Shown here: one piece after another, positions 1,047-49,593 of the stretch
Layout: every line of letters begins with the position of its first letter
Numbering within the stretch: position 1 is the first letter of the stretch
Source: Escherichia coli
GTDB taxonomy: Bacteria > Pseudomonadota > Gammaproteobacteria > Enterobacterales > Enterobacteriaceae
NCBI RefSeq assembly: GCF_050320075.1
Contig: NZ_CP190018.1
DNA: 64,000 nt
Direction: 5' to 3' (one strand)
The notes under the pieces: generated by a model
What the model saw: the letters and a program-made list of their open reading frames with translations, nothing else
Database searches by the model: none
Told to the model about the DNA's origin: nothing
Position numbers and translations under genes: made by a program

Positions 1047-3023
1047 ATGCAGCTTAATCATATCGTTAAAAGTCTGCTAATAACGGGATTATTCACCACC
1101 AGTTCTTTACCTCTCCTCGCGGCGGAAGCTCCTAAAGACGCCACCGCAGCCACGCAACAAGCAAACAATTTACTCTACAACCAGTTGCCGTTTGCCGATA
1201 ACACTGACTTTACTGATGCCCATAAAGGTTTTATTGCCCCTATCCCTCAAGACGTGATTAAGGGCGAACAAGGGAATGTTATCTGGGATCCACAACATTA
1301 CGCTTTTATCAAAGAAGGCGATAAAGCCCCTGATACGGTGAATCCGAGTTTATGGCGTCAGGCGCAACTGATAAATATCAGCGGGTTATTCGAAGTAACT
1401 GAAGGTGTCTATCAGATTCGCAATCTCGATCTATCAAATATGACCATCATTGAAGGCAAAGAGGGTATTACCGTCGTTGATCCCCTTGTTTCAGCAGAAA
1501 CAGCCAAAGTGGGTATGGATCTCTATTACAAAAATCGCGGCAAAAAACCGGTAGTGGCGGTTATCTATACACACAGTCATGTCGATCACTACGGTGGTGT
1601 TCGTGGCGTAATTGATGAAGCTGACGTTAAATCAGGCAAAGTTAAAATCTATGCGCCAGCCGGATTTTTGGAGGAAGCCGTTTCCGAAAACATCATGGCT
1701 GGCAATGTTATGAGCCGACGAGCCAGTTATATGTATGGCAACTTATTGAAACCTGATGTTAAAGGCCAGGTGGGGGCTGGACTGGGAACGACTACTTCAG
1801 CAGGAACAGTCACGTTGATTGCTCCTACTAACTACATCACCAAAACCGGACAAATAGAAACTATTGACGGGTTGACTTATGATTTCCTGATGGCGCCAGG
1901 TTCTGAAGCGCCTTCTGAAATGCTGTGGTTTATTGAAGAAAAGAAACTGATCGAAACCGCTGAAGATGTCACGCACACCCTTCATAACACCTATTCGCTG
2001 CGTGGGGCTAAAATTCGCCAACCGCTGCCGTGGTCAAAATATATTAATGAAGCTCTCAATTTGTGGGGTGATAAAGCCGAGATTATTCTCGCTCAACATC
2101 ACTGGCCAACCTGGGGCAACGATAACGTGGTCAAACTGCTTAAAAGCCAGCGTGATTTGTATCGTTACATCAATGATCAAACTCTGCGCATGGCTAATCA
2201 AGGGATGACCCGTGATGAAATTGCCGCAAACTTTAAACTGCCCTCTTCACTGGCTAACACCTGGGCGAATCGCGGCTATTACGGTTCGGTAAGTCATGAC
2301 GTGAAAGCAACTTACGTGCTTTATCTCGGCTGGTTTGATGGTAACCCCGCGACGCTTGATGAACTGCCGCCAGAAGAAGGCGCAAAAAAATTCGTCGAGT
2401 ATATGGGCGGTGCTGATGCCATTTTACAGAAAGCCACACAGGATTATGACCAGGGTAATTTCCGCTGGGTTGCCCAAGTTGTTAGTAAGGTGGTGTTTGC
2501 CGATCCAAACAACCAGGCAGCGAGAGATCTGGAAGCTGATGCGCTTGAGCAGTTAGGCTATCAGGCTGAATCTGGGCCGTGGCGTAATTTCTATCTCACT
2601 GGTGCACAGGAATTGCGTAATGGCGTACAAAAATTACCAACACCAAATACTGCCAGCCCAGACACCGTGCGTGCGATGACGCCGGAGATGTTCTTTGATT
2701 ATCTTGCCGTCCATATTAATGGTGAGAAAGCGGCAGATGCCAAAACCGTGTTGAATTTCGATTTTGGTGAAGATGGCGGCACCTATAAAGTGGAGCTTGA
2801 AAATGGTGTTCTCAATCATACCGCTGGTGTAGAGGCTTCGGATGCTGATGCCACTATCACTCTGTCTCGTGATGTATTGAACAAAATTGTACTGAAAGAA
2901 GAGACGCTGAAAGAAGCCACGGCCAAAGGAGATGTCAAAATTACTGGCAATGAGGAAAAACTCAACGAGCTGTTAGGTTATATGGATAATTTTGAATTTT
3001 GGTTCAATATAGTGACACCATAA
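1047..3023 (+). CDS. alkyl/aryl-sulfatase, metallo-beta-lactamase fold (YjcS/BDS1-like), with N-terminal signal peptide
   Basis: 658 aa; signal peptide MQLNHIVKSLLITGLFTTSSLPLLAAEA; HSHVDHYGG metal-binding motif; GGAG Shine-Dalgarno upstream. Confidence 0.8.
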   Translation: MQLNHIVKSLLITGLFTTSSLPLLAAEAPKDATAATQQANNLLYNQLPFADNTDFTDAHKGFIAPIPQDVIKGEQGNVIWDPQHYAFIKEGDKAPDTVNPSLWRQAQLINISGLFEVTEGVYQIRNLDLSNMTIIEGKEGITVVDPLVSAETAKVGMDLYYKNRGKKPVVAVIYTHSHVDHYGGVRGVIDEADVKSGKVKIYAPAGFLEEAVSENIMAGNVMSRRASYMYGNLLKPDVKGQVGAGLGTTTSAGTVTLIAPTNYITKTGQIETIDGLTYDFLMAPGSEAPSEMLWFIEEKKLIETAEDVTHTLHNTYSLRGAKIRQPLPWSKYINEALNLWGDKAEIILAQHHWPTWGNDNVVKLLKSQRDLYRYINDQTLRMANQGMTRDEIAANFKLPSSLANTWANRGYYGSVSHDVKATYVLYLGWFDGNPATLDELPPEEGAKKFVEYMGGADAILQKATQDYDQGNFRWVAQVVSKVVFADPNNQAARDLEADALEQLGYQAESGPWRNFYLTGAQELRNGVQKLPTPNTASPDTVRAMTPEMFFDYLAVHINGEKAADAKTVLNFDFGEDGGTYKVELENGVLNHTAGVEASDADATITLSRDVLNKIVLKEETLKEATAKGDVKITGNEEKLNELLGYMDNFEFWFNIVTP

Positions 3024-3035
3024 ATTTACTGCATA

Positions 3036-3062
3036 CCGGGCAGGTATCCTGCCCTTTTTTGG
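3036..3062 (+). terminator. rho-independent terminator after the sulfatase gene
   Basis: GC hairpin GGGCAGG-TATC-CTGCCC followed by a T run. Confidence 0.5.
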
Positions 3063-3069
3063 TTAAAAA

Positions 3070-4167
3070 ATGGCTGAACGAAGAAAAACTCATCACTCAT
3101 GGAAAACCCGCCGCGATATGGTTATTCGCGGCATGACGATTAGTTTGCCATGGTTTGCTTTTATCAATGTCAGTTTTGCATTGATAATTTTGCTGCGCCG
3201 TGTTCTGTTTAATGACCTTACTCCACCCTGGTTAAATGAAAAAAGCCTTATACATTCTATTGATATATCTGCAACGGGTATTCTGCTGATTTGCAGTGGT
3301 TTACTACTCATCCCTCGGCAAAAAACATTACCTATCCAGGTGCTATTAGTTGCCCTGAGCCTGCTATGGTCATGGTGTAGTTATCACTTTATTGCGTACT
3401 GGACGCTGCAGTTTGCTTATCCACTATGTGTATTATTAATGCTTAGTGGCGTTGTCGCACTTTATTTCCATACCCCATCATTGCTCGCATTTGTCATTCC
3501 CTTATGGTTCACCACTCCAATAGCGAGTCTTATGCTTAATCAACAGATCAATATTCATTTTGCTGTTGTATGGTGTATTTTTTCACTGGCGCTATATGGT
3601 GGGCGACTCATTTTGTTACGTTGGTTTGAAGAAGCATGGGTACAAAACAGTTATAACAACCAGTTAATTAATCGCCTTGATGCATTAGCACATCGTGATC
3701 CTTTAACTGGGATAGCAAACCGACGTGCAATGAACAGTATCTTACACGACGCGATGGATAACGGCGGGTCATTTGCTCTTATTATGCTGGATGTCGATTT
3801 TTTTAAACGTTACAACGACACTTACGGGCATCCTGCTGGGGATCGTTGTCTAATACAAGTTGCCGACGCTCTACAGCGTTCAACTCGCCAGTCGGAGGAT
3901 GTTGTTGTCCGTTATGGTGGCGAAGAGTTTGCCATCATACTTTTTAATGCAACATTGCCGGAAGCAGAGACGGTAGCAGCCAGAGTGAAGCAAGAACTTA
4001 AACTGGCAGCTATCCCACATCAGGCATCTGCTGTTAATGCATTTGTTACGGTTAGTCAGGGGATTACCTGTTCTGCTCCCGCAAAAACGGCTGAACAAAT
4101 TATTTCAGATGCCGACGCTGCGTTATACCGGGCGAAAGAAAGTGGGCGAAATCGATGGGCTTTATAA
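3070..4167 (+). CDS. membrane-anchored diguanylate cyclase (GGDEF domain, GGEEF active-site motif); start codon uncertain
   Basis: Hydrophobic multi-helix N-terminal half; C-terminal GGDEF domain with RYGGEEF and DxLTG-like motifs. Confidence 0.8.
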   Translation: MAERRKTHHSWKTRRDMVIRGMTISLPWFAFINVSFALIILLRRVLFNDLTPPWLNEKSLIHSIDISATGILLICSGLLLIPRQKTLPIQVLLVALSLLWSWCSYHFIAYWTLQFAYPLCVLLMLSGVVALYFHTPSLLAFVIPLWFTTPIASLMLNQQINIHFAVVWCIFSLALYGGRLILLRWFEEAWVQNSYNNQLINRLDALAHRDPLTGIANRRAMNSILHDAMDNGGSFALIMLDVDFFKRYNDTYGHPAGDRCLIQVADALQRSTRQSEDVVVRYGGEEFAIILFNATLPEAETVAARVKQELKLAAIPHQASAVNAFVTVSQGITCSAPAKTAEQIISDADAALYRAKESGRNRWAL

Positions 4168-4240
4168 GCATTAGGGGACTGGACAGATTACGTCTCTCCT
4201 CGCTTAACAAGGGCTGACGGAGGGTAATAATTGTCTATAG

Positions 4241-4792
4241 CTATCTTCTTAGCGATGTCTTTCTGGTATCACATTGGATCGGTGCAATTATTTTTCCTTT
4301 AATACCCATTATGTTAAGAAATTCAGAAACAGCTGTAATCTCATTGTTTTTTTCATTCGTCTTGATCTTCCAAGGAATCTGACTGTGCATTATTGAGAAC
4401 ACACTAATAACGTGAATCGCTCCCTTGCGACGACTCTTGTCATAAGAGTACCGGAGCGTTTTTCCATCAATTGCAATGACGTCTTTATCATCTGAAGAAT
4501 GGCAGTCAAGCATCCAGTTAATAAAGCACTCATAAAATTTTTCAGGACTGATACAGGATACAACTCTGGCAATGGTATCGTGAACAGGAATACCATTATC
4601 AAAATCACCATATTGCTTCAAAAAATCGAGATGTGTTTCCCCAAAATCCTCTATATCTTCCCAGCCTTCTGCACCCGAAATAACGGCACAAATAGTCAAC
4701 AGTAGAATATCCGATAATTTATGTTCCACTTTCCAGGCTTGTCTGTAATCGGGGATAATAGAAATATGTCCCATCAATTTTTTAAGTTCCAT
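4241..4792 (-). pseudogene. H-repeat-associated (ISAs1-family transposase-like) gene remnant, N-terminal ~183 codons only
   Basis: Aligns to the first half of the 378-codon H-rpt frame at 10493..11629, then diverges and stops. Confidence 0.7.
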
Positions 4793-4939
4793 TTTGTTCT
4801 CCTTAATTATGTAAGGAGTATTTGATCATGTATACGCAATAAAAAACAGCTTCAGGTAATGAGGAATATCTCAATTGTTAAACATAAAATGCGAATTGTC
4901 TAGTACAAAAAAGCAGCGTTACGTGATCTTTCCGTGGAT

Positions 4940-5065
4940 CGTCAAATTGTTCGAGAGAAAATACCAACATGATGGATTTTACTGTAAAAGTAATGTCGTA
5001 GTTTAAAAACTCATCATCCGGTAAAGCCTTGTGGGGCGTGGGCTTTCATACTTTTACCCTGATGT
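4940..5065 (-). repeat. H-rpt element upstream-end repeat, copy A
   Basis: About 120 bp closely similar to 11680..11810, each just upstream of an H-rpt reading frame. Confidence 0.6.
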
Positions 5066-5377
5066 CTGCTATACGCCGGACACCCTTTACGTAGCATTCG
5101 GAATTCACCCGTAAATTTATCACGGCGGTATCACGAAACCTCCGGTTCTGATGCCGCTTAGGACTAACGACACGTCAACACAGGTTCGGGTTTATTCATT
5201 TCACTGTATCTCATATAATCTGAGCACTCCCCCTGCGCTCGCTACTATGACTCTTTACCACAGCAACCGGGGTTGTTTGGGATCGGCTTTCAACAGCAGA
5301 TCCCGGTGGCTATTGCAAGTAAGTCTACTTTCCACATCAGTGTTACTGACACAGAAAATAATGAGTTATGATCCTTG

Positions 5378-5863
5378 TCATATTTTTAATATAGCCCCAT
5401 GAGCTATAGGATCAAAACCTTCTAACCATGAGGTGTTTTTATCGAATAATGCATCTGTTATATTTATATCGCCATATCTATCACATAATAAATTAGCGCC
5501 ACATAAGTCAGCACCAGAAAAATTTGAATCTTTAACGTCTGCATTGCAAAAGGTTGAATTAGTTAATATAGCACCCTCAAAGTTTGCACCTATTGACCTT
5601 GAATTACTAAAGTCACTTCCAGTGAAATCTGAGTTATTAAGAATAGCGTTCATCAGAGCCGCATTGCGAAAGACAGCATTTCTAGTTGATGTATGTTGAA
5701 TCATTACATTTCTTAAATGGGAATTTTCAAATTTCGCCCCATCAAGACAATAACCATTGAGGATGGCACGATGTAGATCCATCCCGCTAAAATCATATCC
5801 AGCAAGAGTGGTACTATCTATATCAAGAAATTTATTGGTTATTAAAAACGCGATTCTTATCAT
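5378..5863 (-). CDS. pentapeptide-repeat protein, putative immunity protein for the adjacent Rhs C-terminal toxin
   Basis: 161 aa with tandem A(D/N)LxG/F-type pentapeptide repeats; its start overlaps the Rhs stop by 4 bp (ATGA); AT-rich. Confidence 0.75.
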
Positions 5864-8800
5864 CTATTCCCCCAATCATCTAACTCCGGAAAAATTTGGC
5901 TAAACGGATATAGTGGTGCCGATAATGGACGCGTACCTGGCCGCTCAGGAGGAAGTTTATCACATAACAGACCCGCAACCATCCTGTGATTACCATTAAC
6001 AATCACATTCCCATCCATATCAACCGGTGGTGCTCCACTACCATCTTCCAGCATTTGTACGTAGTGAGCTACTACGGGTACTGAGACTTTTTGTTGTACT
6101 GTCAACAAGGGACTGTTGGCCACAACCATCCTGATGTTTTCAGGTGTCGTAGGTAAACATTTAGTCTTCTCTTGACTAAAGGTATCATCCCACAATTTTG
6201 TTAAACCCATCACTGCCTGTTGTCTGTATTTATCCATGGGGTCAGCAATCAACCAAGATGGACCTGACTGCTCTATGGAATCTTCTCCGGAGAGACCCAA
6301 CGGATCTATCTTAGTAGTTGGATTCAATGGATACTGATACAGGTTCCATGCACCTCTTAGCCCAATGGGATCCTGGGTGATATACCGCCCCTGCAACGGG
6401 TCATAGTACCGGTTGCGGTTATAGTACAGCCCCGACTCCTCATCATACTGCTGCCCCGGCAGACGGTACGGCTGTTGCAGTTGCTGCGCGCTGGTTTCGC
6501 CCAGCAGGTTTCCCCACTCGTCATACTCCCCCTGCCACGCCGTTTCCCCTTCCGGGCTGATGAGCGCCTGCGGCAGCCCCCGGTGGTCGCAGTGGTAAAG
6601 ATGAAGTGTCCTCTCCGGGATGTATTCCGCCTCCATCTGGTTTTTCATCTGTTCCGCCGTCAGCCCGCACTGCTGAAGCCATGCCTCACTCTCCGCACTC
6701 ACCGCACCCGCGCGCAGTTCCCGCTCCAGCCTCCCCAGCATCACCGACAGCTCCGCCGGTAGCGTCACCCCCGTGTCCTCCTGCAACACCTCCGCCAGAC
6801 TCCGGTGCCGCGCCTTCGCCTGTTCACCATTCTCTGTTTCGATTCTGATGAGCGGCGTGAAGCTCCCCGGCTGGTATACCGTCTGGATACGCGTGGTGCC
6901 GGTCTGTACCGTCGTCAGCCTGTCACCGTCCCACCCGTACCAGGTCTCCTCCGGTTTACGCGACAGCGACATCCACCCCGTCAGGTCACGCTCCCGCCGC
7001 CACACCCGTTTCCCCGTCCGGCGGCCCAGCGGGTCATAGAGGTAGCGGCTCTCCACCTGTGGCTCGCCGTGCTGTATCCGCGTGTAGAACACCAGGCGGT
7101 GCTGGCTGTCGTAATGGTAGTGGTGCGTCCGCTCGTCGTGCATCCGTATCACCCCTTCCGGGATACGGTCCGTCTTCTCCGCCAGCCTGCCGTATTCATC
7201 GTAGCGGTAGACATAGTGCGCATCTTCCGTGATGCGGTTATCCGGCCACGCCGTGAAGGTGCTGTCCGGGTGCAGTTCCGGGTCCGGCAGCCGGTTTCCT
7301 GCCGGGTCCGTCGCATACGGGATATCGATATCCAGGTTCGCCGCCGTGGTGTGAACGCCCGTCAGTCTTCCCGTGTCGCTGTAACGGTACTTCCGGCTCT
7401 CCTGCGGGCCGCTGATGCGCACCAGTTGCCCGTTATCGTTCCACGTATACTCACGGTCAAGCTGCGGAAGGTTCAGGTGCCTGCTCCGGAGCTGCCCTGT
7501 GAGGGTGTACGCCGTGGCCTGTTCGTACCCCGCTGTACTGCCCGCCCCGCCGAAGCTGCGGGCCGTCTCACGGTGCAGCCGGTCCCGCGTGTACTCGACC
7601 AGCGGCGTTCCGCCCAGCTTCATCCCCGCAAGATAACCGCTGCCATACGTCAGCCACTCCACCGGCGGCAGACCGTCCGGCTCCTGACGGGTCGCCAGCC
7701 CCTGTTCGCTGTAGACGTGCCTCGTCTCATGCTCCCACAGCATCTCCCCCGTCTCCTGGTTCTCCACCGTCTGCCGTTCGCCCGTCAGGCGGCCTTTATC
7801 GTCATAGCCGTAGTGGACCGCCACACGGTGGCCTTCGCTCAGGTGGCTGATTTCTGTCAGCCAGCCGTGGTCGTCATACTGCCACTGCTCCGCCGGGTCG
7901 CCGTTCACCGTCCGGTGCGTGATGCGCCCGGCGTCATCGTAGTACCACTGCGTGACCTGCCCCTCATCCTCGCTGCGGATGAGCTGCCCTGTGGCGCTGT
8001 ACCGGTAACGCTGTGTCCTGCCGTCAAAGCCGCGCTGCTCCGTCAGCCTGTCCACCGGGTCATACCGGAACGTGGACTGGCTGCCGTTCTCGTTGGTCAG
8101 CACGGTGATGCGCCCGGCGGCGTCATACTCCATGCTGCGCGTCAGTCCGCCCTGCGTGGTGCTGACGGCCTTTCCCCACGCATCATACTGTGTCTCACTC
8201 CGGCTGCCGTTCGGGGCAATGATAGCGGTGAGGTCGCCTGCGGCGCTGTACTCATAACGGGTTTCACGTCCCTGCGCATCCTTCTGACTGACCAGTTGAC
8301 CACGCGGGTTATAACTGCTGTAAGTGCTGATGCCTTCCTCCCGGTGAACCGCCGTCCTCTGACCGTACCGGTCGTATTCATACCGCGTCGTGTACCCTGA
8401 ACAGTCCGTAAATGCCTGAAGCTGACCGTACCGGTTTCGCGTTATTCTCCGCCTCACCCCGGTTCCGTCTTCCACCGCACAGGGCAGGCCACTGCGGGAA
8501 GAATCATAAAACCAGCGCGTAATGTTACCGTTGCGCGAGACCTCTTCCGCCAGCCTGCCCTGACGGTCATATTTCCGGCTGCGGCGCAGCCCGTCCGGGT
8601 ACGTCACTGACGTCAGTTGCAACTGGTTGTTGTAACCATACCGTACCGTCCTGCCGTCCGGCAGTATCACTGAAGTCAGCTTTCCCGACGCCATATGCAG
8701 CCGGTACTCCGTCCGCCGTCCCGCCGCATCCGTCTGCGCCTTCAGCCTCCCCGCCTCATCATACTCGCTGCGGGTGATGCTCCCGTCCCCATACTCCTTC

Positions 8801-10071
8801 TTCACCACCCGCTTCAGGCCGCCCTCGCCCTCCGTGTACAGCACCTCCCGCCGGTTCAGGCTGTCCGTGATGGTCACGCGGTCCTGCCCGTACTCAAAGC
8901 GGTAGTCCAGCCCCTCCGGGTTGACCTGCTCCGTCACCCGACCGGTATCATCATACCGGTAGCGGCTCTCCGGCCTCCCCGCATAATGGTGCGCCACCAT
9001 CCGCCCGGCGTGCTCCGCATCATAAGTAAACCCGCGCACCTGCGTCCCGCTGCGGTCATACACCGCCCGCAGTTCTCCGCTGGCCGTGTACGTGTAGCGC
9101 GCCAGCGGCGCAGTCGGCAGTTCATCCGGGTATGCCGGGTCGTGTGTCAGCCATACCGCCTCCAGCCGGATACCGTTATCGGCACCGTACTCTGTACCGG
9201 TGGGCAGCGTGTCGGGGAAAAACTGAGAAGAGGAAACAGAACGGGGACTGGCCGGAGAAGATAAAGAAGACTCGCGCTGTTTACGGAAGGCTTTCGCCCG
9301 CTGCGCCTGTGTGGTCAGCGCCAGATGAAAACGGCGGCCCGCGCCGTCCGTCACCCCCGTCACCGCGCCCGCCGCTTCCCCCTCTGCCGCCCGGTGGAAG
9401 GCCAGCGTCCGCCCGAAGCCGTCCACCACGCCCGTCAGCACCCGGTATGCGGGCGGCTCCGGCGGCAGCACCTCGTCCGCCTCCGGCACCCGCTCCGGCC
9501 AGCCGAGTATCCACCACGGCCCCTGAAGGCTGTTTGTCGCCAGGTACACATGCGGGCTTAAGCGGAGACTCTCCGGCAGCACCTGCCAGAGCGCGCTTAG
9601 CGGCTGCGAACTGTGCTGCTCCGCCACCCCGCCCCTTGCCAGCCAGAACGACTCGCTGCGGCTGTAGCTTATCTCGCCGGGAAACAGCGGCTCAAAGTGA
9701 ATGCTCCTGCCGCCACTGTCGTTGAGTATCAGTTCCCGCTCATGAACCTGTAAGCGGATATCGAAGGGCGCTTTCCAGCCGGGACCAAACACCCCCACCG
9801 GCGCGGGTGTCCTGGTCCGGTAGCTGCTGTAGGCGCGGGAAAGAATAAACGGCAACGGGCCGGGCAGCGCAAGATCCGTCTCGCCCGGCAGCACCTTCGC
9901 ACCCAGTAGCGGGTTCACCGGGTTACCCTTCTGCTCCTCCACCGGGCTGTTGGGACACACCGAGCAGGCCACTCCCGTCGGCGCACCTATCAGCACCCCC
10001 GCTGAACCCTGCACAATATCCAGTCCCTTGCGGGTCATATCGCCCTGTCGCGCCGCCGGTTTTCCGCTCAT
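5860..10071 (-). CDS. full-length Rhs family protein: PAAR-like N-terminus, YD-repeat core, DPLGL boundary, variable C-terminal toxin domain
   Basis: 1403 aa; conserved Rhs N-terminus [13 protein letters not shown]; many YD/RYxYD repeats; PxxxxDPLGL motif; GC-rich core. Confidence 0.9.
5863..6291 (-). other. Rhs C-terminal variable toxin domain (~143 aa after DPLGL), family not recognised
   Basis: Sequence after the DPLGL motif is unrelated to the conserved core and lower in GC. Confidence 0.6.
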
Positions 10072-15587: not shown

Positions 15588-15828
15588 GACGACTCCCTTT
15601 GATGAACCGATATTTTTGCTGCTTCACAATGCTTCGCTAAGCGTAATCATCGTTACGCTCTTGTTATAAATGGGAATGGTAATCATTATTTTCTCAAATG
15701 TGGAGCATTTCTTGCCGTTACGACTACAATTTTCTCAATTACTTAACGTATCGTGCCGTTTCGTTTTCCATATATTTACAATTTTATTACCATGGCGGCG
15801 TTTTCCCATTCTTAACTTGGCTTTTTTC

Positions 15829-17931
15829 ATGAAGATTTTTTCCGTCCGACAGACCGTTTTGCCCGCACTGCTTGTCCTTTCCCCCGTTGTTTTTGCCGCT
15901 GATGAACAGACCATGATTGTCAGTGCCGCACCGCAGGTGGTTTCAGAACTGGATACCCCAGCAGCCGTGAGCGTGGTGGATGGCGAGGAGATGCGCCTGG
16001 CAACACCGCGCATTAACTTGTCCGAATCACTGACCAGCGTGCCTGGTTTGCAGGTACAAAACCGGCAGAACTATGCGCAAGATTTACAGCTGTCGATTCG
16101 CGGATTTGGCTCCCGCTCCACTTACGGAATTCGCGGTATTCGCCTGTATGTGGACGGTATTCCCGCCACCATGCCCGACGGACAAGGGCAAACATCCAAC
16201 ATCGATTTAAGCAGTGTACAAAATGTGGAAGTGCTGCGCGGCCCCTTCTCTGCTCTGTATGGCAACGCGTCTGGCGGTGTAATGAATGTCATCACCCAGA
16301 CCGGACAACAGCCACCAACCATTGAAGCCAGTAGTTACTACGGCAGTTTTGGCAGCTGGCGCTATGGGCTGAAAGCAACAGGCGCAATGGGCGACGGCAC
16401 TCAGCCTGGCGATGTCGATTACACCGTCTCAACCACGCGCTTTACGACCCACGGCTATCGTGATCATAGTGGCGCACAGAAAAATTTAGCCAATGCCAAA
16501 CTGGGCGTACGCATTGATGACGCCAGCAAATTAAGCCTGATTTTCAATAGTGTGGATATCAAAGCAGATGACCCAGGTGGGCTAACCGAAGCAGAATGGA
16601 AGGCGAATCCGCAACAAGCGCCACGCGCTGAACAGTACGACACGCGAAAAACCATCAAGCAAACTCAGGCTGGGTTGCGCTATGAACGTAGCCTGAGCGC
16701 ACAAGATGATATGAGTGTGATGATGTATGCCGGGGAGCGAGAAACGACCCAGTACCAGTCAATCCCGATGGCACCACAACTTAACCCGTCGCATGCGGGC
16801 GGCGTGATTACTCTGCAACGCCATTATCAGGGGATAGACAGCCGCTGGACACACCGTGGCGAGCTGGGCGTTCCGCTCACGTTCACTACCGGCCTGAACT
16901 ACGAAAACATGAGTGAAAATCGCAAAGGCTACAATAACTTCCGCCTGAATAGCGGCGTGCCGGAATACGGGCAAAAAGGTGAGTTGCGCCGTGACGAACG
17001 CAATCTGATGTGGAACGTCGATCCCTATTTGCAGACACAGTGGCAGCTGAGCGAAAAACTGTCGCTGGATGCTGGCGTGCGCTACAGCTCCGTATGGTTT
17101 GATTCCAACGACCATTACGTTACTTCGGGTAACGGCGATGACAGCGGTGATGCCAGTTATCACAAATGGCTACCTGCCGGTTCGTTAAAATATGCAATGA
17201 CCGATGCCTGGAATATCTATCTGGCAGCCGGGCGAGGTTTTGAAACGCCGACGATTAATGAGCTGTCTTATCGTGCTGACGGTCAAAGCGGTATGAACTT
17301 TGGTTTAAAACCATCCACCAACGATACAATTGAGATCGGCAGTAAAACGCGTATTGGTGATGGGCTGCTTAGTCTCGCATTGTTCCAGACCGACACCGAT
17401 GATGAAATTGTAGTCGATAGCAGTAGCGGTGGGCGTACGACTTACAAAAATGCCGGAAAGACCCGTCGTCAAGGCGCTGAGCTGGCATGGGATCAACGTT
17501 TCGCGGGAGATTTTCGTGTAAAAGCGTCCTGGACCTGGCTCGATGCGACCTATCGCAGCAATGTTTGCAATGAACAGGATTGTAACGGTAATCGGATGCC
17601 AGGGATCGCCCGTAATATGGGCTTTGCGTCGATAGGTTATGTACCGGAGGATGGCTGGTATGCAGGTACGGAAGCGCGTTATATGGGCGATATTATGGCA
17701 GATGATGAAAATACGGCCAAAGCGCCGTCTTATACTCTCGTCGGCTTATTCACCGGGTATAAATACAATTACCACAATTTAACTGTGGATTTATTTGGTC
17801 GTGTCGATAATTTATTCGATAAAGAATACGTTGGTTCTGTCATTGTCAATGAGTCAAACGGGCGATATTACGAACCTGCGCCCGGGCGAAATTATGGTGT
17901 CGGCATGAATATTGCATGGCGATTTGAGTAA
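15829..17931 (+). CDS. yncD: TonB-dependent outer-membrane receptor
   Basis: 700 aa from MKIFSVRQ; signal peptide; C-terminal aromatic residue (…AWRFE). Confidence 0.85.
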   Translation: MKIFSVRQTVLPALLVLSPVVFAADEQTMIVSAAPQVVSELDTPAAVSVVDGEEMRLATPRINLSESLTSVPGLQVQNRQNYAQDLQLSIRGFGSRSTYGIRGIRLYVDGIPATMPDGQGQTSNIDLSSVQNVEVLRGPFSALYGNASGGVMNVITQTGQQPPTIEASSYYGSFGSWRYGLKATGAMGDGTQPGDVDYTVSTTRFTTHGYRDHSGAQKNLANAKLGVRIDDASKLSLIFNSVDIKADDPGGLTEAEWKANPQQAPRAEQYDTRKTIKQTQAGLRYERSLSAQDDMSVMMYAGERETTQYQSIPMAPQLNPSHAGGVITLQRHYQGIDSRWTHRGELGVPLTFTTGLNYENMSENRKGYNNFRLNSGVPEYGQKGELRRDERNLMWNVDPYLQTQWQLSEKLSLDAGVRYSSVWFDSNDHYVTSGNGDDSGDASYHKWLPAGSLKYAMTDAWNIYLAAGRGFETPTINELSYRADGQSGMNFGLKPSTNDTIEIGSKTRIGDGLLSLALFQTDTDDEIVVDSSSGGRTTYKNAGKTRRQGAELAWDQRFAGDFRVKASWTWLDATYRSNVCNEQDCNGNRMPGIARNMGFASIGYVPEDGWYAGTEARYMGDIMADDENTAKAPSYTLVGLFTGYKYNYHNLTVDLFGRVDNLFDKEYVGSVIVNESNGRYYEPAPGRNYGVGMNIAWRFE

Positions 17932-17964: not shown

Positions 17965-18675
17965 ATTGTGCACAGAAAACCCCCAGCTAGGCTGGGGGTT
18001 CCGGAAAGCTTTCAGCTTTAAGCCAGTTATTAAAACCCCTTTTGATTTGTTAAAACACCTTGCGGTCTGGCAACTGCAAGTGTCAAACAAGAAATCAAAA
18101 GGGGGTCCCAATGGGGAACGAAAAGAGCTTAGCGCACACCCGATGGAACTGTAAATATCACATAGTTTTTGCGCCAAAATACCGAAGACAGGTGTTCTAC
18201 AGAGAGAAGCGTAGAGCAATAGGCAGTATTTTGAGAAAGCTGTGTGAGTGGAAAAGTGTACGGATTCTGGAAGCTGAATGCTGTGCAGATCATATCCATA
18301 TGCTTGTGGAGATCCCGCCCAAAATGAGCGTATCCGGCTTTATGGGATATCTGAAAGGGAAAAGCAGTCTGATGCTTTACGAGCAGTTTGGTGATTTGAA
18401 ATTCAAATACAGGAACAGGGAGTTCTGGTGCAGAGGGTACTACGTCGATACGGTGGGTAAGAACACGGCGAAGATACAGGATTACATAAAGCACCAGCTT
18501 GAAGAGGATAAAATGGGAGAGCAGTTATCGATTCCCTATCCGGGCAGCCCGTTTACGGGCCGTAAGTAACGAAGTTGGATGCAAATGTCAGATCGTGTGC
18601 GCCTGTTAGGGCGCGGCTGGTAAGAGAGCCTTATAGGCGCATTTGAAAAACCTCCGGCTATGCCGGAGGATATTT
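17965..18675 (+). mobile_element. IS200-like insertion sequence (IS200/IS605 family), boundaries approximate
   Basis: Left-end hairpin CCCCCAGCTAGGCTGGGGG just upstream of a 152-aa HUH/Y1 transposase; about 0.7 kb. Confidence 0.6.
18111..18569 (+). CDS. tnpA: IS200 transposase TnpA (Y1 HUH transposase, 152 aa)
   Basis: MGNEKSLAHTRWNCKYHIVFAPKYRR with HxH motif (ADHIHML) and catalytic Tyr region. Confidence 0.85.
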   Translation: MGNEKSLAHTRWNCKYHIVFAPKYRRQVFYREKRRAIGSILRKLCEWKSVRILEAECCADHIHMLVEIPPKMSVSGFMGYLKGKSSLMLYEQFGDLKFKYRNREFWCRGYYVDTVGKNTAKIQDYIKHQLEEDKMGEQLSIPYPGSPFTGRK

Positions 18676-18677
18676 AT

Positions 18678-19343
18678 TTAACGATTGTATTGCTGGTATA
18701 AAATAGCAATATTTTGTTGCATAATTTCAGCAAGACAATGTCTGCATCCCTCTTTGTCTTTTGCTTTTAACGCGGCGAGTAATAGACGATAGTTTTCTAT
18801 ACGTTCCCGTAATTCCGCTGGATTAATCGCTTCATAAAGATAATGTAAACCAGGTCCCATCCTGACCCACAGTTGCTCAATCATCTCACACAGGATGGGC
18901 ATATTTGAACGATGATAAATTGCTAAGCGAAATAGCCTGTTCGCATTAATGATTTGTTCCATGTCGCCCTTTTCTTGCGCCTGCTGTAATTTCTCGAGCA
19001 ATTCCTCGAGTTCCGCCAGGTCTTGCGAGGTGAGGTTTTCAACAGCCAGAGTAACTGCCATTAATTCCAGCTCGTAGCGGATCCGATTGATTTCGTCTAA
19101 TTGACGTTTCCCCACTTCCGGAACTGTAAATGCTTGCGCTGGTGCGACAGAAAGCGCATTCACCGAAACCAGACGTAATAATGCTTCACGCACAGGTGTA
19201 ATACTCATACCTAATTGCTCCGCCAGATTTTTAGTAATCAGGCGTGCGCCAGGTTTTAGTGCGCCAATACTAAGCTGATGTTTCAGGTCATTCTCAACCT
19301 GCAGAGTCAAACTGACATGTTTCATTTTTTCCGTTCCAGGCAT
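18678..19343 (-). CDS. mcbR: GntR/FadR-family transcriptional regulator McbR
   Basis: 221 aa from MPGTEKMKH; AAGGA Shine-Dalgarno; N-terminal GntR helix-turn-helix. Confidence 0.85.
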   Translation of the reverse strand: MPGTEKMKHVSLTLQVENDLKHQLSIGALKPGARLITKNLAEQLGMSITPVREALLRLVSVNALSVAPAQAFTVPEVGKRQLDEINRIRYELELMAVTLAVENLTSQDLAELEELLEKLQQAQEKGDMEQIINANRLFRLAIYHRSNMPILCEMIEQLWVRMGPGLHYLYEAINPAELRERIENYRLLLAALKAKDKEGCRHCLAEIMQQNIAILYQQYNR

Positions 19344-19540
19344 TTTAATTCCTTCGCGTGTTTTCTGTCCAACCCTGCCTGCATGGCAGAAGGAGTTCAC
19401 CTGGGGTATTAAAGTGAATAATCATAAACCACTCACCTTTATTGTTATTAGCAGCAGAACAATGACGTAGTTAGTTAATTAAAGCTGAAAATAAGCTTTT
19501 TGCCTGGATTTTTATGGCGGCTTACGCCGCCGTCGTATCT

Positions 19541-45389: not shown

Positions 45390-45764
45390 TACCGTTGTCT
45401 CTCTTCCAGGTTTACTCCTGATAGAAAGTCATCGGCACTTGACGGTAATTTCTTACGACCAAAAACCTCTTTGCGTCACATTTTTACAACAATTATGGCA
45501 GAGAAGAATAATGCCATTGGAATGAAGAGAGTAACGAATGATTAAACTGGCTAAACCGAATGACGAAAAATTCTGGAAAACAGCACGCAATTTCGTGAAG
45601 TGATTATTTTCGTCCCTAAGGAAACCTCATAGGATGCCTGCGGGTGCCTGAGACTTTCTGTTTTCAGGCTAACCGGGAATCAGAAAGACGAAGGCCCCGA
45701 CCGATATTTCTATCAACTGTACTGCACCCATTTTGTTGGACGATGAAATGGAATAGCCCCTAAT

Positions 45765-46286
45765 ATGTCAAAGCCAAAATACCCTTTTGAAAAGCGCCTT
45801 GAAGTCGTGAATCACTACTTCACAACTGATGATGGTTACAGGATCATCTCGGCACGTTTTGGTGTCCCCCGAACCCAGGTCAGGACATGGGTTGCCCTCT
45901 ATGAAAAACATGGAGAAAAAGGTTTAATTCCCAAACCTAAAGGCGTTAGTGCTGATCCAGAGTTGCGTATTAAGGTCGTGAAAGCTGTGATCGAGCAGCA
46001 CATGTCCCTTAATCAGGCTGCTGCTCACTTTATGCTTGCTGGTAGTGGTTCTGTAGCCAGGTGGCTGAAGGTCTATGAAGAGCGCGGAGAAGCTGGTTTA
46101 CGCGCGCTCAAGATTGGCACCAAAAGAAACATTGCAATATCAGTTGATCCAGAAAAAGCGGCATCAGCATTGGAGCTGTCAAAAGACCGACGCATTGAGG
46201 ATCTTGAAAGGCAAGTTCGATTTCTTGAAACGCGGCTTATGTATCTAAAAAAGCTGAAAGCCTTAGCTCATCCCACGAAAAAGTAA
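45765..46286 (+). CDS. insJ: IS150 OrfA (InsJ), helix-turn-helix DNA-binding protein
   Basis: 173 aa MSKPKYPFEKRLEVVNHYF. Confidence 0.85.
   Translation: MSKPKYPFEKRLEVVNHYFTTDDGYRIISARFGVPRTQVRTWVALYEKHGEKGLIPKPKGVSADPELRIKVVKAVIEQHMSLNQAAAHFMLAGSGSVARWLKVYEERGEAGLRALKIGTKRNIAISVDPEKAASALELSKDRRIEDLERQVRFLETRLMYLKKLKALAHPTKK
46277..46283 (+). other. putative programmed -1 ribosomal frameshift site (A AAA AAG) joining orfA to orfB
   Basis: Slippery heptamer at the orfA/orfB overlap, as in IS3-family elements. Confidence 0.5.
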
Positions 46287-47134
46287 AAGTACTCAACGAG
46301 CTAAGGCAGTTTTATCCTCTTGATGAGCTTCTCAGGGCTGCGGAGATACCGCGCAGTACGTTTTATTACCATCTAAAGGCTCTCAGCAAGCCTGACAAGT
46401 ATGCGGACGTTAAAAAGCGTATTGGTGAGATTTATCACGAGAATAGAGGCCGATACGGATACCGTAGGGTAACGCTGTCTCTTCATCGAGAAGGGAAACA
46501 GATTAACCATAAAGCTGTTCAGCGCCTGATGGGAACCCTCTCACTTAAAGCAGCGATTAAGGTCAAGCGATACCGCTCTTACAGAGGAGAGGTAGGGCAA
46601 ACCGCCCCTAATGTTCTCCAAAGAGATTTCAAGGCTACGCGGCCAAACGAGAAGTGGGTTACCGATGTTACTGAATTTGTAGTCAATGGGCGCAAGCTGT
46701 ATTTGTCTCCAGTAATAGATCTCTTCAACAACGAAGTTATTTCTTACAGCCTTTCGGAAAGACCAGTGATGAACATGGTTGAGAATATGCTCGATCAGGC
46801 ATTCAAAAAGCTTAATCCTCACGAGCATCCTGTTCTGCACTCTGACCAGGGATGGCAGTATCGTATGAGAAGATATCAAAATATCCTTAAAGAACATGGT
46901 ATTAAACAAAGCATGTCCAGAAAAGGCAATTGTCTGGATAATGCTGTGGTGGAGTGTTTCTTTGGAACCTTAAAGTCGGAGTGTTTTTATCTTGATGAGT
47001 TCAGTAATATAAGCGAACTGAAGGATGCTGTTACGGAATATATTGAATACTACAACAGCAGAAGAATTAGCCTGAAATTAAAAGGTCTGACTCCAATTGA
47101 ATATCGGAATCAGACCTATATGCCTCGTGTTTAA
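46283..47134 (+). CDS. insK: IS150 OrfB (InsK), DDE transposase catalytic domain, expressed as an OrfAB fusion by frameshift
   Basis: Frame open from about 46268; DDE integrase-like sequence. Confidence 0.75.
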
Positions 47135-47175
47135 CTGTCCAACTTTTTGGGGTCAGTACAAACCGAGGCCAACGA

Positions 47176-47383
<208 letters not shown>

Positions 47384-47454
47384 GGGCAAGCGCGGGGATT
47401 TTCCCCGCGCATCTGACTAGCAGATTCATTTTCTCATGGCACCCCTTTTACACT

Positions 47455-47628
47455 TCAGTTAGTGCATGTTTTTTTCGATGCACTAATAGAACCATCATTA
47501 CAGACAAATTTGCCGCCTGCCGTACAGTGTGAGATCCCCCCTTTCGAACCAGAACAGGGTTTGCGCCCGGCATCGGCATAAAAGGAAACAAGCGTTCCCA
47601 TAAACAAGATAAGTGCCAGTTTTTTCAT
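47455..47628 (-). CDS. ydcA: small secreted cysteine-rich protein YdcA (57 aa)
   Basis: MKKLALILFMGTLVSFYADAGRKPCSGSKGG; GGAGG Shine-Dalgarno; not in the ORF track (too short). Confidence 0.65.
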   Translation of the reverse strand: MKKLALILFMGTLVSFYADAGRKPCSGSKGGISHCTAGGKFVCNDGSISASKKTCTN

Positions 47629-47798
47629 ATAACCTCCATGGTTTATCGAATCTTATGTTCGATTTGAACGTTATACGCTGGTTTATTTTGATACCGTTGA
47701 TGAGATCAAAGATCGGGCGAATTGATTAAAGATAAGCCAGATGGACGTATGGATAAGGATTATGGTTTTATTTGTCATACAAATAAATATAATAGGCG

Positions 47799-47862
47799 CT
47801 TCCGATGTAGACCCGTATTCTTCGCCTGTACCACGGGTCGGTTTTAGTACAGGCGTTTTCTT
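47799..47862 (+). ncRNA. rydC: RydC small RNA (Hfq-dependent, pseudoknot), approximate ends
   Basis: cybB-ydcA intergenic location; CTTCCGATGTAGACCCGTATTC...; hairpin CCTGTAC/GTACAGG with T-run; TATAAT-like -10 box upstream. Confidence 0.55.
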
Positions 47863-47872
47863 TAAATATCCT

Positions 47873-48403
47873 TCAGGAACGTTTACGCGGCATCATGCGT
47901 AGAAGTGTGTTGTCCTTCCAGAAATAGTGGTGTGCCAGTGCAGCCGCAGCGTGCAACCCGATGACAAAATATCCCAGATTCGCCAGCATTTCATGCCACG
48001 ACTTTAAGCTATCAACCCGTTCGAAATTGGCCTCTGATGCATAAGGCATCGTCAAACCAAACGCAAACCACGGGTTGCCTCGGTTATACATCATCACCAA
48101 ACCAATCACTGGCAGCGCAATAAACAGGAGATAAATCACCAAATGTCCCAAATGCGCCAGTCCCGTCATCATCGGTTTTGGCTTAGGTATAATCGGCGGG
48201 GTTGGGTATTTCAGCCTTAACAAAAGACGAACGACCATCAGCACGAGAATTGATATGCCACAGGAAACATGAATCATGTTGATGAGTGGCCGATCGCTAC
48301 GTGGGAAGAACCCCCGAAACTCCATTGCGCAATACGCTGCAATAACCAGCAAAAAGACCAGCCAGTGAATGCTGATTTGTAACCTTGAGTATTTATTTTC
48401 CAT
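47873..48403 (-). CDS. cybB: cytochrome b561
   Basis: 176 aa from MENKYSRLQISIHW; four-helix membrane protein with conserved His residues. Confidence 0.85.
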   Translation of the reverse strand: MENKYSRLQISIHWLVFLLVIAAYCAMEFRGFFPRSDRPLINMIHVSCGISILVLMVVRLLLRLKYPTPPIIPKPKPMMTGLAHLGHLVIYLLFIALPVIGLVMMYNRGNPWFAFGLTMPYASEANFERVDSLKSWHEMLANLGYFVIGLHAAAALAHHYFWKDNTLLRMMPRKRS

Positions 48404-48591
48404 AACATTTCCTGCTTTAACATAATTTTCCGTTAACATAACGGGCTTTTCTTAAAATTTCATTAAATATTGTTCACCCGTTTTCAGTACGTTACGTTTC
48501 ACGGCAAGAATGTAGATTGCCCATCCCGCCATCCTGGTCTAAGCCTGGAAAGGATCAATTTTCATCCGAACGTTCCTGACAGGAGAAGACC

Positions 48592-49593
48592 ATGAGTAAA
48601 GTTGGTATTAACGGTTTTGGTCGTATCGGTCGACTGGTGTTGCGTCGATTACTTGAAGTCAAAAGCAACATAGACATTGTCGCTATTAATGATCTCACTT
48701 CCCCAAAAATTCTCGCCTACCTGCTGAAACATGATTCAAACTATGGACCGTTCCCCTGGAGCGTTGATTTTACGGAAGATTCACTTATCGTTGATGGGAA
48801 AAGTATCGCGGTTTACGCCGAAAAAGAGGCTAAAAATATTCCGTGGAAAGCGAAAGGGGCAGAAATTATTGTCGAATGTACTGGCTTTTATACCTCCGCC
48901 GAGAAATCGCAGGCGCATCTTGATGCTGGTGCGAAGAAGGTGTTGATTTCCGCCCCTGCCGGTGAAATGAAAACTATCGTTTATAACGTCAATGACGACA
49001 CTCTGGATGGCAACGACACCATTGTTTCCGTGGCGTCATGCACCACTAACTGCCTTGCGCCGATGGCCAAAGCCTTGCACGACAGTTTCGGAATAGAAGT
49101 CGGCACGATGACGACCATTCATGCCTATACCGGCACTCAGTCACTGGTGGATGGCCCGCGTGGTAAAGATTTACGTGCTTCACGCGCAGCGGCAGAAAAT
49201 ATCATTCCCCACACTACGGGGGCGGCAAAAGCCATTGGTCTGGTGATCCCAGAACTGAGCGGCAAACTGAAAGGTCATGCGCAACGCGTGCCGGTGAAAA
49301 CAGGTTCCGTCACTGAACTGGTATCGATTCTCGGAAAAAAAGTGACTGCCGAAGAGGTGAATAACGCACTTAAACAAGCAACCACCAATAACGAGTCATT
49401 TGGTTATACCGATGAAGAAATAGTCTCTTCCGATATCATTGGCAGCCATTTCGGTTCGGTGTTTGATGCCACGCAAACCGAAATTACCGCCGTGGGCGAT
49501 TTACAACTGGTGAAAACGGTCGCCTGGTACGATAACGAATATGGCTTCGTCACGCAGCTTATTCGCACCCTCGAAAAATTCGCTAAACTCTGA
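48592..49593 (+). CDS. gapC: glyceraldehyde-3-phosphate dehydrogenase C, intact 333-aa reading frame
   Basis: NAD motif NGFGRIGR; catalytic SCTTNC. Confidence 0.85.

What the first reader, a model, noticed from the sequence alone, without database searches (positions are those of the whole stretch)
47799..47862. Probable RydC sRNA in the cybB-ydcA intergenic region
A ~64-nt segment with a -10-like TATAAT upstream and a terminal hairpin plus T-run matches what I recall of the RydC pseudoknot sRNA and sits where rydC lies in K-12.
Basis: partly seen in the sequence, partly recalled or inferred. Interest (0 to 1): 0.25.

Follow-up and report, generated by a model that had tools for sequence, protein, structure and literature searches.

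The report
The known E. coli sRNA gene rydC

Summary
The finding is confirmed and is already known. Window 47799-47862 (+) matches the Rfam RydC model (RF00505) end to end at exactly these coordinates (92.5 bits against a gathering score of 48, E = 5e-17). It is 64/64 identical to rydC (b4597) of E. coli K-12 MG1655. It lies in the same gene order as in K-12: aldA, gapC, cybB, rydC, ydcA, hokB, trg.

All the described parts of RydC are present:
- a perfect TATAAT at 47788-47793, with no -35 box, as published;
- a single-stranded 5' seed;
- two interlocked helices that form the pseudoknot (nt 12-18/35-41 and 26-33/49-56);
- the loop UU steps and the 3' U-rich tail that contact Hfq.

The seed is predicted to pair with the K-12 cfa 5' UTR at -109 to -99. 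That is the published RNase E site which RydC masks to stabilise cfa mRNA.

5,411 of 5,426 complete E. coli genomes carry the gene. Compared with Salmonella RydC, helix 2 shows three compensatory pair changes.

Expression in this strain could not be tested. The interest is very low. The only local differences from K-12 are five substitutions upstream of the -10 box.

The parts
47788..47793 (+). -10 box TATAAT of the rydC sigma-70 promoter. There is no -35 box and no TG extension.
   Evidence: Read directly. Identical in K-12. PMC11340327 describes a perfect -10 and no obvious -35. The promoter scan, which needs both hexamers, found none.
47799..47862 (+). rydC gene (64 nt by Rfam; K-12 annotates 65 nt, to 47863; the published nucleotide numbering fits a +1 at 47800)
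   Evidence: RF00505, 92.5 bits, model positions 1-64/64. 64/64 identical to b4597.
47799..47811 (+). Single-stranded 5' seed (CUUCCGAUGUAGA). Nt 3-13 pair with the cfa mRNA 5' UTR.
   Evidence: Invariant in all six Escherichia/Salmonella sequences apart from A13G. Duplex with K-12 cfa -109..-99 at -17.7 kcal/mol, reached by 1 of 500 shuffles. Published base-pairing genetics in PMC6755755.
47810..47816 (+). Pseudoknot helix 1, 5' arm (GACCCGU, nt 12-18)
   Evidence: Modelled by Rfam. 100% paired in six sequences; the only changes are one-sided wobble changes.
47833..47839 (+). Pseudoknot helix 1, 3' arm (ACGGGUC, nt 35-41)
47824..47831 (+). Pseudoknot helix 2 / terminator stem, 5' arm (GCCUGUAC, nt 26-33), lying inside the loop of helix 1
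   Evidence: MFE fold. Three compensatory pair changes against Salmonella.
47847..47854 (+). Pseudoknot helix 2 / terminator stem, 3' arm (GUACAGGC, nt 49-56)
47855..47862 (+). 3' U-rich tail GUUUUCUU: intrinsic terminator tail and ligand for the proximal face of Hfq
   Evidence: Read directly. The role of the tail is taken from PMC4337610.
47455..47628 (-). Context: ydcA (57 aa), the 5' flanking gene, divergent from rydC
   Evidence: NF007462, 147 bits. K-12 annotation.
47873..48403 (-). Context: cybB (cytochrome b561, 176 aa), the 3' flanking gene, convergent. Its stop codon lies 10 nt from the rydC 3' end.
   Evidence: NF008566, 377 bits over residues 13-188 of the longest ORF. K-12 annotation.

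Best explanation
This is the rydC gene of Escherichia coli. It encodes RydC, a roughly 64-nt Hfq-dependent small RNA that acts in trans. It would be transcribed from a sigma-70 promoter that has a perfect -10 box but no -35 box, and in K-12 that promoter is kept almost silent by the GntR-family repressor YieP. The RNA folds into an H-type pseudoknot, in which helix 2 also serves as the intrinsic terminator stem. This fold leaves the first 11-13 nucleotides free as a seed. Hfq binds the 3' U-tail and the UU steps in the two loops. The seed then pairs with the long (sigma-70) isoform of cfa mRNA about 100 nt upstream of the start codon and covers an RNase E cleavage site. That stabilises the mRNA and raises cyclopropane fatty acid synthase levels. 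Weaker repressive targets have also been reported (yejABEF, csgD, pheA, trpE). Shown here: family membership, sequence identity, gene order, promoter element, both helices, and seed/target complementarity. Taken from the literature on the identical K-12 sequence and the Salmonella orthologue: Hfq binding, RNase E protection and YieP repression.
For: Rfam RF00505 full-length hit at 47799-47862, 92.5 bits against a gathering score of 48. 64/64 identity to K-12 rydC b4597, with an identical -10 box and identical downstream flank. Same gene order as K-12 and strain CFSAN061763: aldA, gapC, cybB, rydC, ydcA, hokB, trg. Present once per genome in 5,411 of 5,426 complete E. coli genomes, at >=99% identity in 4,063. 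Helix 1 and helix 2 are fully complementary. Within Escherichia the only stem changes are wobble-preserving (A13G opposite U40, A35G opposite U18). Against Salmonella RydC, rebuilt from published primers, helix 2 has three pairs changed on both sides; only 4 of 500 shuffles reach this, and no slid register shows more than one such pair. Seed nt 3-13 pair with K-12 cfa -109..-99 (11 bp, -17.7 kcal/mol, reached by 1 of 500 shuffles). This coincides with the published RNase E site between G-100 and A-99 and with the C4G/G-101C compensatory genetics (PMC6755755). The Hfq contact residues named in the crystal-structure paper are all present: the UU step in each loop, the G residues of helix 1 and the U-tail. 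YieP repression, the -10-only promoter and the cybB/ydcA flanks are described in PMC11340327.
Against: No expression data exist for this strain. Five substitutions relative to K-12 lie upstream of the -10 box, at 47718, 47731, 47753-47754 and 47774 (that is, -81, -68, -46/-45 and -25). Their effect on promoter strength or on the unmapped YieP operator is unknown. The strain's own cfa leader is outside the window, so target pairing was computed on the K-12 sequence. The exact 5' end is uncertain by one nucleotide (47799 in Rfam and the K-12 annotation; 47800 from the published numbering). RefSeq PGAP records do not annotate the gene, which reflects the pipeline's choice of families and is not evidence against it.
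Confidence: 0.97

Rival explanations
1. The gene sequence is intact, but in this strain it is transcriptionally dead or regulated differently, because of the five substitutions upstream of the -10 box. It would then be a silent copy and not a working sRNA gene.
For: Five differences from K-12 between -81 and -25, including G for A at -25 inside the promoter spacer. RydC is barely detectable even in wild-type K-12 (PMC11340327).
Against: The -10 box, the start site and the whole RNA are identical to K-12. The exact 244-bp intergenic allele, or one >=99% identical, occurs in 430 complete genomes, and 95-99% variants occur in nearly all the others, so this is ordinary population variation. [quoted passage not shown]
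Confidence: 0.03
2. The hairpin and T-run are simply an intergenic transcription terminator for a neighbouring protein gene, not a gene of their own.
For: A strong 8-bp G+C-rich stem followed by a T-run lies 10 nt from the end of cybB.
Against: Both neighbours (ydcA, cybB) are on the minus strand while the T-run is on the plus strand. Read on the minus strand, the stems are followed by GAAGAAUACGG or UACAUCGG, with no U-run. The conserved 5' seed, the second interlocked helix and the Rfam score are not explained by a terminator.
Confidence: 0.01
3. The region encodes a small protein: mechanical ORFs at 47741-47902 (53 aa) or 47722-47847 (41 aa) on the plus strand.
For: These ORFs appear in the six-frame list.
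Against: Both start upstream of the rydC -10 box and start site. Inside the RNA the only start codon is AUG at nt 7-9, followed at once by UAG. Nothing is annotated there in K-12 or in PGAP records. The substitutions within Escherichia follow RNA-pairing rules.
Confidence: 0.01

Closest known systems
RydC of Escherichia coli K-12 MG1655 (rydC, b4597; Rfam RF00505)
   Same: Identical over all 64 nt, with the same -10 box, the same downstream flank and the same flanking genes cybB and ydcA.
   Different: Only five substitutions further upstream in the ydcA-rydC spacer, at -81, -68, -46/-45 and -25. The wider neighbourhood differs: gapC is intact here, and an IS150 sits in the sokB/hokB locus about 640 bp away.
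RydC of Salmonella enterica serovar Typhimurium (crystallised with E. coli Hfq, PMC4337610)
   Same: Same seed (nt 1-18 identical), same helix 1, same pseudoknot topology, UU steps in both loops, a U-rich tail, and cybB as the 3' neighbour.
   Different: Salmonella has one extra loop-1 nucleotide and a 9-bp helix 2 with three pairs changed on both sides (U-A/A-U/C-G here, C-G/G-C/U-A there). Its 5' neighbour is STM1638 instead of ydcA. The Salmonella sequence was rebuilt from published primer sequences, not read from a genome.
ArrS and CpxQ, the other sRNAs acting on the long cfa mRNA 5' UTR (PMC6755755)
   Same: ArrS binds a site overlapping RydC's and likewise protects the RNase E site. All three act through Hfq on the same mRNA isoform.
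   Different: They are unrelated in sequence, genomic origin and fold. CpxQ represses instead of activating. Neither forms a pseudoknot. They resemble RydC in what they do, not in family.

Membership tests
RydC sRNA (Rfam RF00505) | Scores above the curated gathering threshold of the family covariance model over its full length | tested here: met
   92.5 bits against 48, model positions 1-64/64, E = 5.2e-17. No other family matches at E <= 1 in 47300-48000.
RydC sRNA (Rfam RF00505) | Sequence orthology with the experimentally characterised K-12 gene | tested here: met
   64/64 identical to b4597.
RydC sRNA (Rfam RF00505) | Conserved position: convergent with cybB at the 3' side; ydcA at the 5' side in E. 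coli/Shigella | tested here: met
   cybB (NF008566, 377 bits) and ydcA (NF007462, 147 bits) flank it on the minus strand. Same order as K-12 and as described in PMC11340327.
RydC sRNA (Rfam RF00505) | Own sigma-70 promoter with a perfect TATAAT -10 box and no recognisable -35 | tested here: met
   TATAAT at 47788-47793. The two-hexamer scan finds no promoter. This matches the published description. Promoter activity itself was not tested.
RydC sRNA (Rfam RF00505) | H-type pseudoknot: helix 1 (nt 12-18/35-41) interlocked with helix 2 (nt 26-33/49-56) | tested here: met
   Both helices are perfectly complementary in the window. 100% of cells are paired in five distinct Escherichia sequences. Three compensatory pairs in helix 2 against Salmonella, reached by 4 of 500 shuffles. 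The three-dimensional fold rests on the literature.
RydC sRNA (Rfam RF00505) | Exposed, conserved 5' seed complementary to the cfa long 5' UTR at the RNase E site | tested here: met
   11-bp duplex of nt 3-13 with K-12 cfa -109..-99, -17.7 kcal/mol, reached by 1 of 500 shuffles. It coincides with the published site. This strain's own cfa leader is outside the window.
RydC sRNA (Rfam RF00505) | Hfq-binding determinants: 3' U-rich tail after the terminator stem, and UU steps in both pseudoknot loops | tested here: met
   UU at 47821-47822 and 47844-47845, and tail GUUUUCUU at 47855-47862, are the contacts named in PMC4337610. Only the presence of the sequence was tested.
RydC sRNA (Rfam RF00505) | A stable ~64-nt transcript that associates with Hfq and activates cfa in vivo | not testable with these tools
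   Needs a northern blot or RNA-seq, Hfq co-immunoprecipitation and a cfa reporter in this strain.
RydC sRNA (Rfam RF00505) | Transcription repressed by YieP | not testable with these tools
   The YieP operator at rydC has not been mapped, and yieP is not in the window.

The most novel reading that the evidence does not exclude
There are only 10 nt and no minus-strand terminator between the cybB stop codon (47873) and the rydC 3' end. cybB transcripts must therefore read through the whole of rydC in antisense. The cybB 3' UTR could act as a perfectly complementary sponge for RydC, or as a source of transcriptional interference with it, which would link RydC and cfa output to cybB expression. 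This would hold equally in K-12. I found no paper addressing it in the searchable library.
Probability: 0.1. Interest if true: 0.3.

Novelty: already known. Interest (0 to 1): 0.04.

Why it matters
It matters little beyond correct annotation. RydC is a characterised regulator of membrane cyclopropane fatty acid content and acid tolerance, and this copy is identical to the reference gene. One practical point: RefSeq/PGAP annotation of non-K-12 E. coli genomes leaves this gene unlabelled, so an Rfam pass is needed to annotate it. The first-stage reader recognised it correctly from sequence alone.

Tried and rejected
1. The generic sigma-70 promoter scan found nothing. This is not evidence against the gene, because rydC is known to lack a -35 box.

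2. The terminator scan missed the true terminator stem, whose loop is 15 nt. Instead it flagged an alternative 6-pair hairpin at 47824-47838, which is incompatible with both helices. I treat that as a chance or alternative fold.

3. The nested MFE fold gave z = -0.48. It is uninformative here because the algorithm cannot represent pseudoknots.

4. The genome-contig scan used CTTCCGATGT-N11-CTTCG, which was too loose: 15 specified bases.

5. The metagenome scan for non-E. coli variants with fixed spacing found nothing. I later saw that Salmonella RydC has one extra loop-1 nucleotide, which fixed spacing excludes.

6. An exact search for the seed's complement upstream of cfa, allowing up to 1 mismatch, found nothing. 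The real duplex starts at nt 3 and contains a U-G wobble, and the thermodynamic duplex search found it.

7. I chose not to spend the large protein-homology searches on fetching more orthologous loci through cybB, since the answer did not depend on them.

8. The small-ORF and neighbour-terminator readings were rejected on strand and sequence grounds.

Full report
**Observation**

The window between 47629 and 47872 is an intergenic spacer flanked by two minus-strand genes.
- The left gene (47455-47628) encodes a 57-aa protein that matches the YdcA equivalog NF007462 (147 bits).
- The right gene (47873-48403; the longest ORF runs to 48439) matches cytochrome b561 CybB (NF008566, 377 bits).

Inside the spacer, reading the plus strand:
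- TATAAT lies at 47788-47793.
- From 47799 the sequence is CUUCCGAUGUAGACCCGUAUUCUUCGCCUGUACCACGGGUCGGUUUUAGUACAGGCGUUUUCUU.
- The last third contains an 8-bp stem, GCCUGUAC/GUACAGGC, followed by GUUUUCUU.

**Is it more than chance?**

A scan of the whole 64-kb window against all 4,227 Rfam families at gathering thresholds gives a RydC (RF00505) hit at exactly 47799-47862 on the plus strand. It covers model positions 1-64 of 64, with 92.5 bits against a gathering score of 48 and E = 5.2e-17. A permissive local scan of 47300-48000 finds no other family at E <= 1.

Two generic scans did not flag the locus, and neither failure counts against it:
- The two-hexamer sigma-70 scan found no promoter. 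rydC is known to have a perfect -10 box but no recognisable -35 (PMC11340327).
- The nested minimum-free-energy fold is no better than shuffled sequence (z = -0.48). Such an algorithm can form only one of the two interlocked helices.

**Identity and context**

The 244-bp spacer aligns without gaps to the K-12 MG1655 cybB-ydcA spacer. It is identical from 24 nt upstream of the start site through the whole RNA and on to the cybB stop codon, which includes the -10 box. The five differences lie at window 47718, 47731, 47753-47754 and 47774, that is -81, -68, -46/-45 and -25.

K-12 annotates rydC (b4597, "small regulatory RNA RydC") at 1491442-1491506, which corresponds to window 47799-47863. The gene order aldA, gapC, cybB, rydC, ydcA, yncP, hokB/mokB/sokB, trg is the same, in inverted orientation.

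The 64-nt sequence occurs once per genome in 5,411 of 5,426 complete E. coli genomes, at >=99% identity in 4,063 of them. The spacer is 100% identical to that of strain CFSAN061763. PGAP-annotated RefSeq records list no feature at this site. That is an annotation gap, not evidence of absence.

**Anatomy**

Numbering is from 47799.
- Nt 1-11 are unpaired and form the seed.
- Helix 1 pairs nt 12-18 (GACCCGU) with nt 35-41 (ACGGGUC).
- Helix 2 pairs nt 26-33 (GCCUGUAC), which lie in the loop of helix 1, with nt 49-56 (GUACAGGC).
- Nt 57-64 form the U-rich tail.

Evaluated alone, the helices are worth -10.5 and -12.2 kcal/mol.

The Rfam model contains only helix 1, so I tested helix 2 separately.
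- Among five distinct Escherichia sequences (the window/K-12, E. albertii, and three E. coli variants with up to four substitutions), all 75 pair cells are standard pairs.
- In those sequences the only substitutions inside stems preserve pairing through wobble: A13G opposite U40, and A35G opposite U18. All other changes fall in loops or the tail.
- I then rebuilt the Salmonella RydC sequence from the overlapping primers printed in PMC4337610 and aligned it.
- Helix 2 then shows three pairs changed on both sides (U-A, A-U and C-G here; C-G, G-C and U-A in Salmonella), plus one extra pair in Salmonella.
- Only 4 of 500 column shuffles reach this, and no slid register shows more than one such pair.

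This agrees with the published pseudoknot (PMC4337610, PMC3985669).

One caveat is that six sequences from two genera make a small sample. A second is that the Salmonella sequence is reconstructed, and its two loop-1 U residues are inferred from the names of the mutants.

**Mechanism**

A thermodynamic duplex search used the first 14 nt against the K-12 cfa leader (-212 to +30).
- It finds a single best site: nt 3-13 pair with -109 to -99. This is 11 bp including one U-G wobble, at -17.7 kcal/mol, against a shuffle mean of -10.0 (SD 2.0), and 1 of 500 shuffles does as well.
- This is the published RydC site. It overlaps the RNase E cleavage between G-100 and A-99, and it was validated by the C4G / G-101C compensatory pair (PMC6755755).
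- The published model is that RydC, presented by Hfq, masks this site, stabilises the long cfa mRNA isoform and raises cyclopropane fatty acid synthase.
- The Hfq contacts seen in the crystal structure are the 3' U-tail in the proximal pore and the UU steps of both loops on the rim. All are present in the window sequence.
- Transcription in K-12 is repressed about 20-fold by the GntR-family regulator YieP, whose translation is in turn repressed by FnrS. OmrB antagonises RydC.

What is shown here is the sequence, the structure and the complementarity. Binding, stabilisation and regulation are inferred from work on the identical K-12 RNA and the Salmonella orthologue.

One detail concerns the 5' end. 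The published residue numbers (C4 pairing with G-101; U23/U24 and G37/G39 in Salmonella) fit a +1 at the U of 47800. That is one nucleotide inside the 5' end given by Rfam and the K-12 annotation, so the 5' end is uncertain by one base.

**Rivals**

- A terminator for a neighbouring gene is excluded by strand. Both neighbours are on the minus strand, and on that strand neither stem is followed by a U-run.
- Coding potential is negligible. The only start codon inside the RNA (AUG at nt 7-9) is followed immediately by UAG. The mechanical ORFs overlapping the region start upstream of the promoter.
- A silent allele caused by the five upstream substitutions cannot be excluded without expression data. 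It is unlikely, because such variants are the norm across E. coli and the region upstream of the core promoter is poorly conserved among species that keep rydC.

**Novelty and score**

This is an already known gene, identical to the reference allele and in its reference position. Interest is very low.

The most novel reading the data leave open is that cybB transcripts must read through rydC in antisense, because only 10 nt and no terminator separate the cybB stop codon from the rydC 3' end. Such read-through could modulate RydC. I found no paper on this in the searchable library and cannot test it here.

**What led nowhere**

It returned 120 stretches, of which two were true RydC.
- A fixed-spacing metagenome pattern found nothing. 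In hindsight, Salmonella-type RydC has an extra loop-1 nucleotide.
- An exact search for the seed's complement upstream of cfa failed because the duplex starts at nt 3 and contains a wobble.

Noticed in passing
window 45718-47160 (with 45642-45794 and 47234-47383): A 1,443-bp IS150 is inserted in the sokB/hokB locus, about 70 nt upstream of the hokB start codon. It encodes IS3-family transposase ORFs at 45765-46286 and 46529-47134 and has a 3-bp target duplication. It is absent from the otherwise 100% identical strain CFSAN061763, but about 940 of 5,426 complete E. coli genomes carry the same junction. The Rfam 'sok' hit (72 bits) runs across the left junction, so its 3' ~77 nt are IS sequence. 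The insertion probably separates hokB from its promoter and disrupts sokB.
   Followed up: partly
window 48592-49593 (+): gapC is an intact 333-aa type I glyceraldehyde-3-phosphate dehydrogenase gene here (TIGR01534, 447 bits). In K-12 MG1655 gapC is annotated as a pseudogene.
   Followed up: partly
window 17978-18101 (+): Full-length Rfam STnc490 (Hfq-binding sRNA) hit, 146 bits. It starts 47 nt after the end of a TonB-dependent receptor ORF (15670-17931) and lies upstream of a minus-strand GntR/FCD regulator ORF (18678-19400). It could be an sRNA derived from a 3' UTR.
   Followed up: no
window 5202-5310 (-): Isolated group II intron D1-D4 hit (RF01999, 48 bits against a gathering score of 36). 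It lies between a pentapeptide-repeat ORF (5378-5863) that follows a 1,403-aa Rhs protein ORF (5860-10071) and an H-repeat-type DDE_Tnp_1_assoc ORF (4241-4792). A permissive Rfam scan of 2500-5900 found no domain V/VI. None of the three neighbouring ORFs given to Pfam is a reverse transcriptase; the two large plus-strand ORFs at 1047-4167 were not scanned. It looks like an orphan intron fragment in an Rhs element.
   Followed up: partly
window 47799-47862, and the matching sites in RefSeq genomes: PGAP-annotated RefSeq E. coli records list no feature over rydC; only the curated K-12 record names it. In addition, 5 of the 5,411 matches are on records labelled as plasmids.
   Followed up: no
window 47799-47800: The published RydC residue numbering (C4G paired with cfa G-101C; U23/U24 and G37/G39 in Salmonella) fits a transcription start at the U of 47800. 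That is one nucleotide downstream of the 5' end used by Rfam and the K-12 annotation (47799).
   Followed up: partly
window 47863-47875 (-): The cybB stop codon is only 10 nt from the rydC 3' end, and no intrinsic terminator is visible on the minus strand across rydC. cybB read-through transcripts would therefore be fully antisense to RydC.
   Followed up: partly
window 47873-48439 (-): The longest cybB ORF (188 aa) starts 12 codons upstream of the annotated 176-aa CybB. The family model aligns only from residue 13, so the annotated start at 48403 is the likely one.
   Followed up: no
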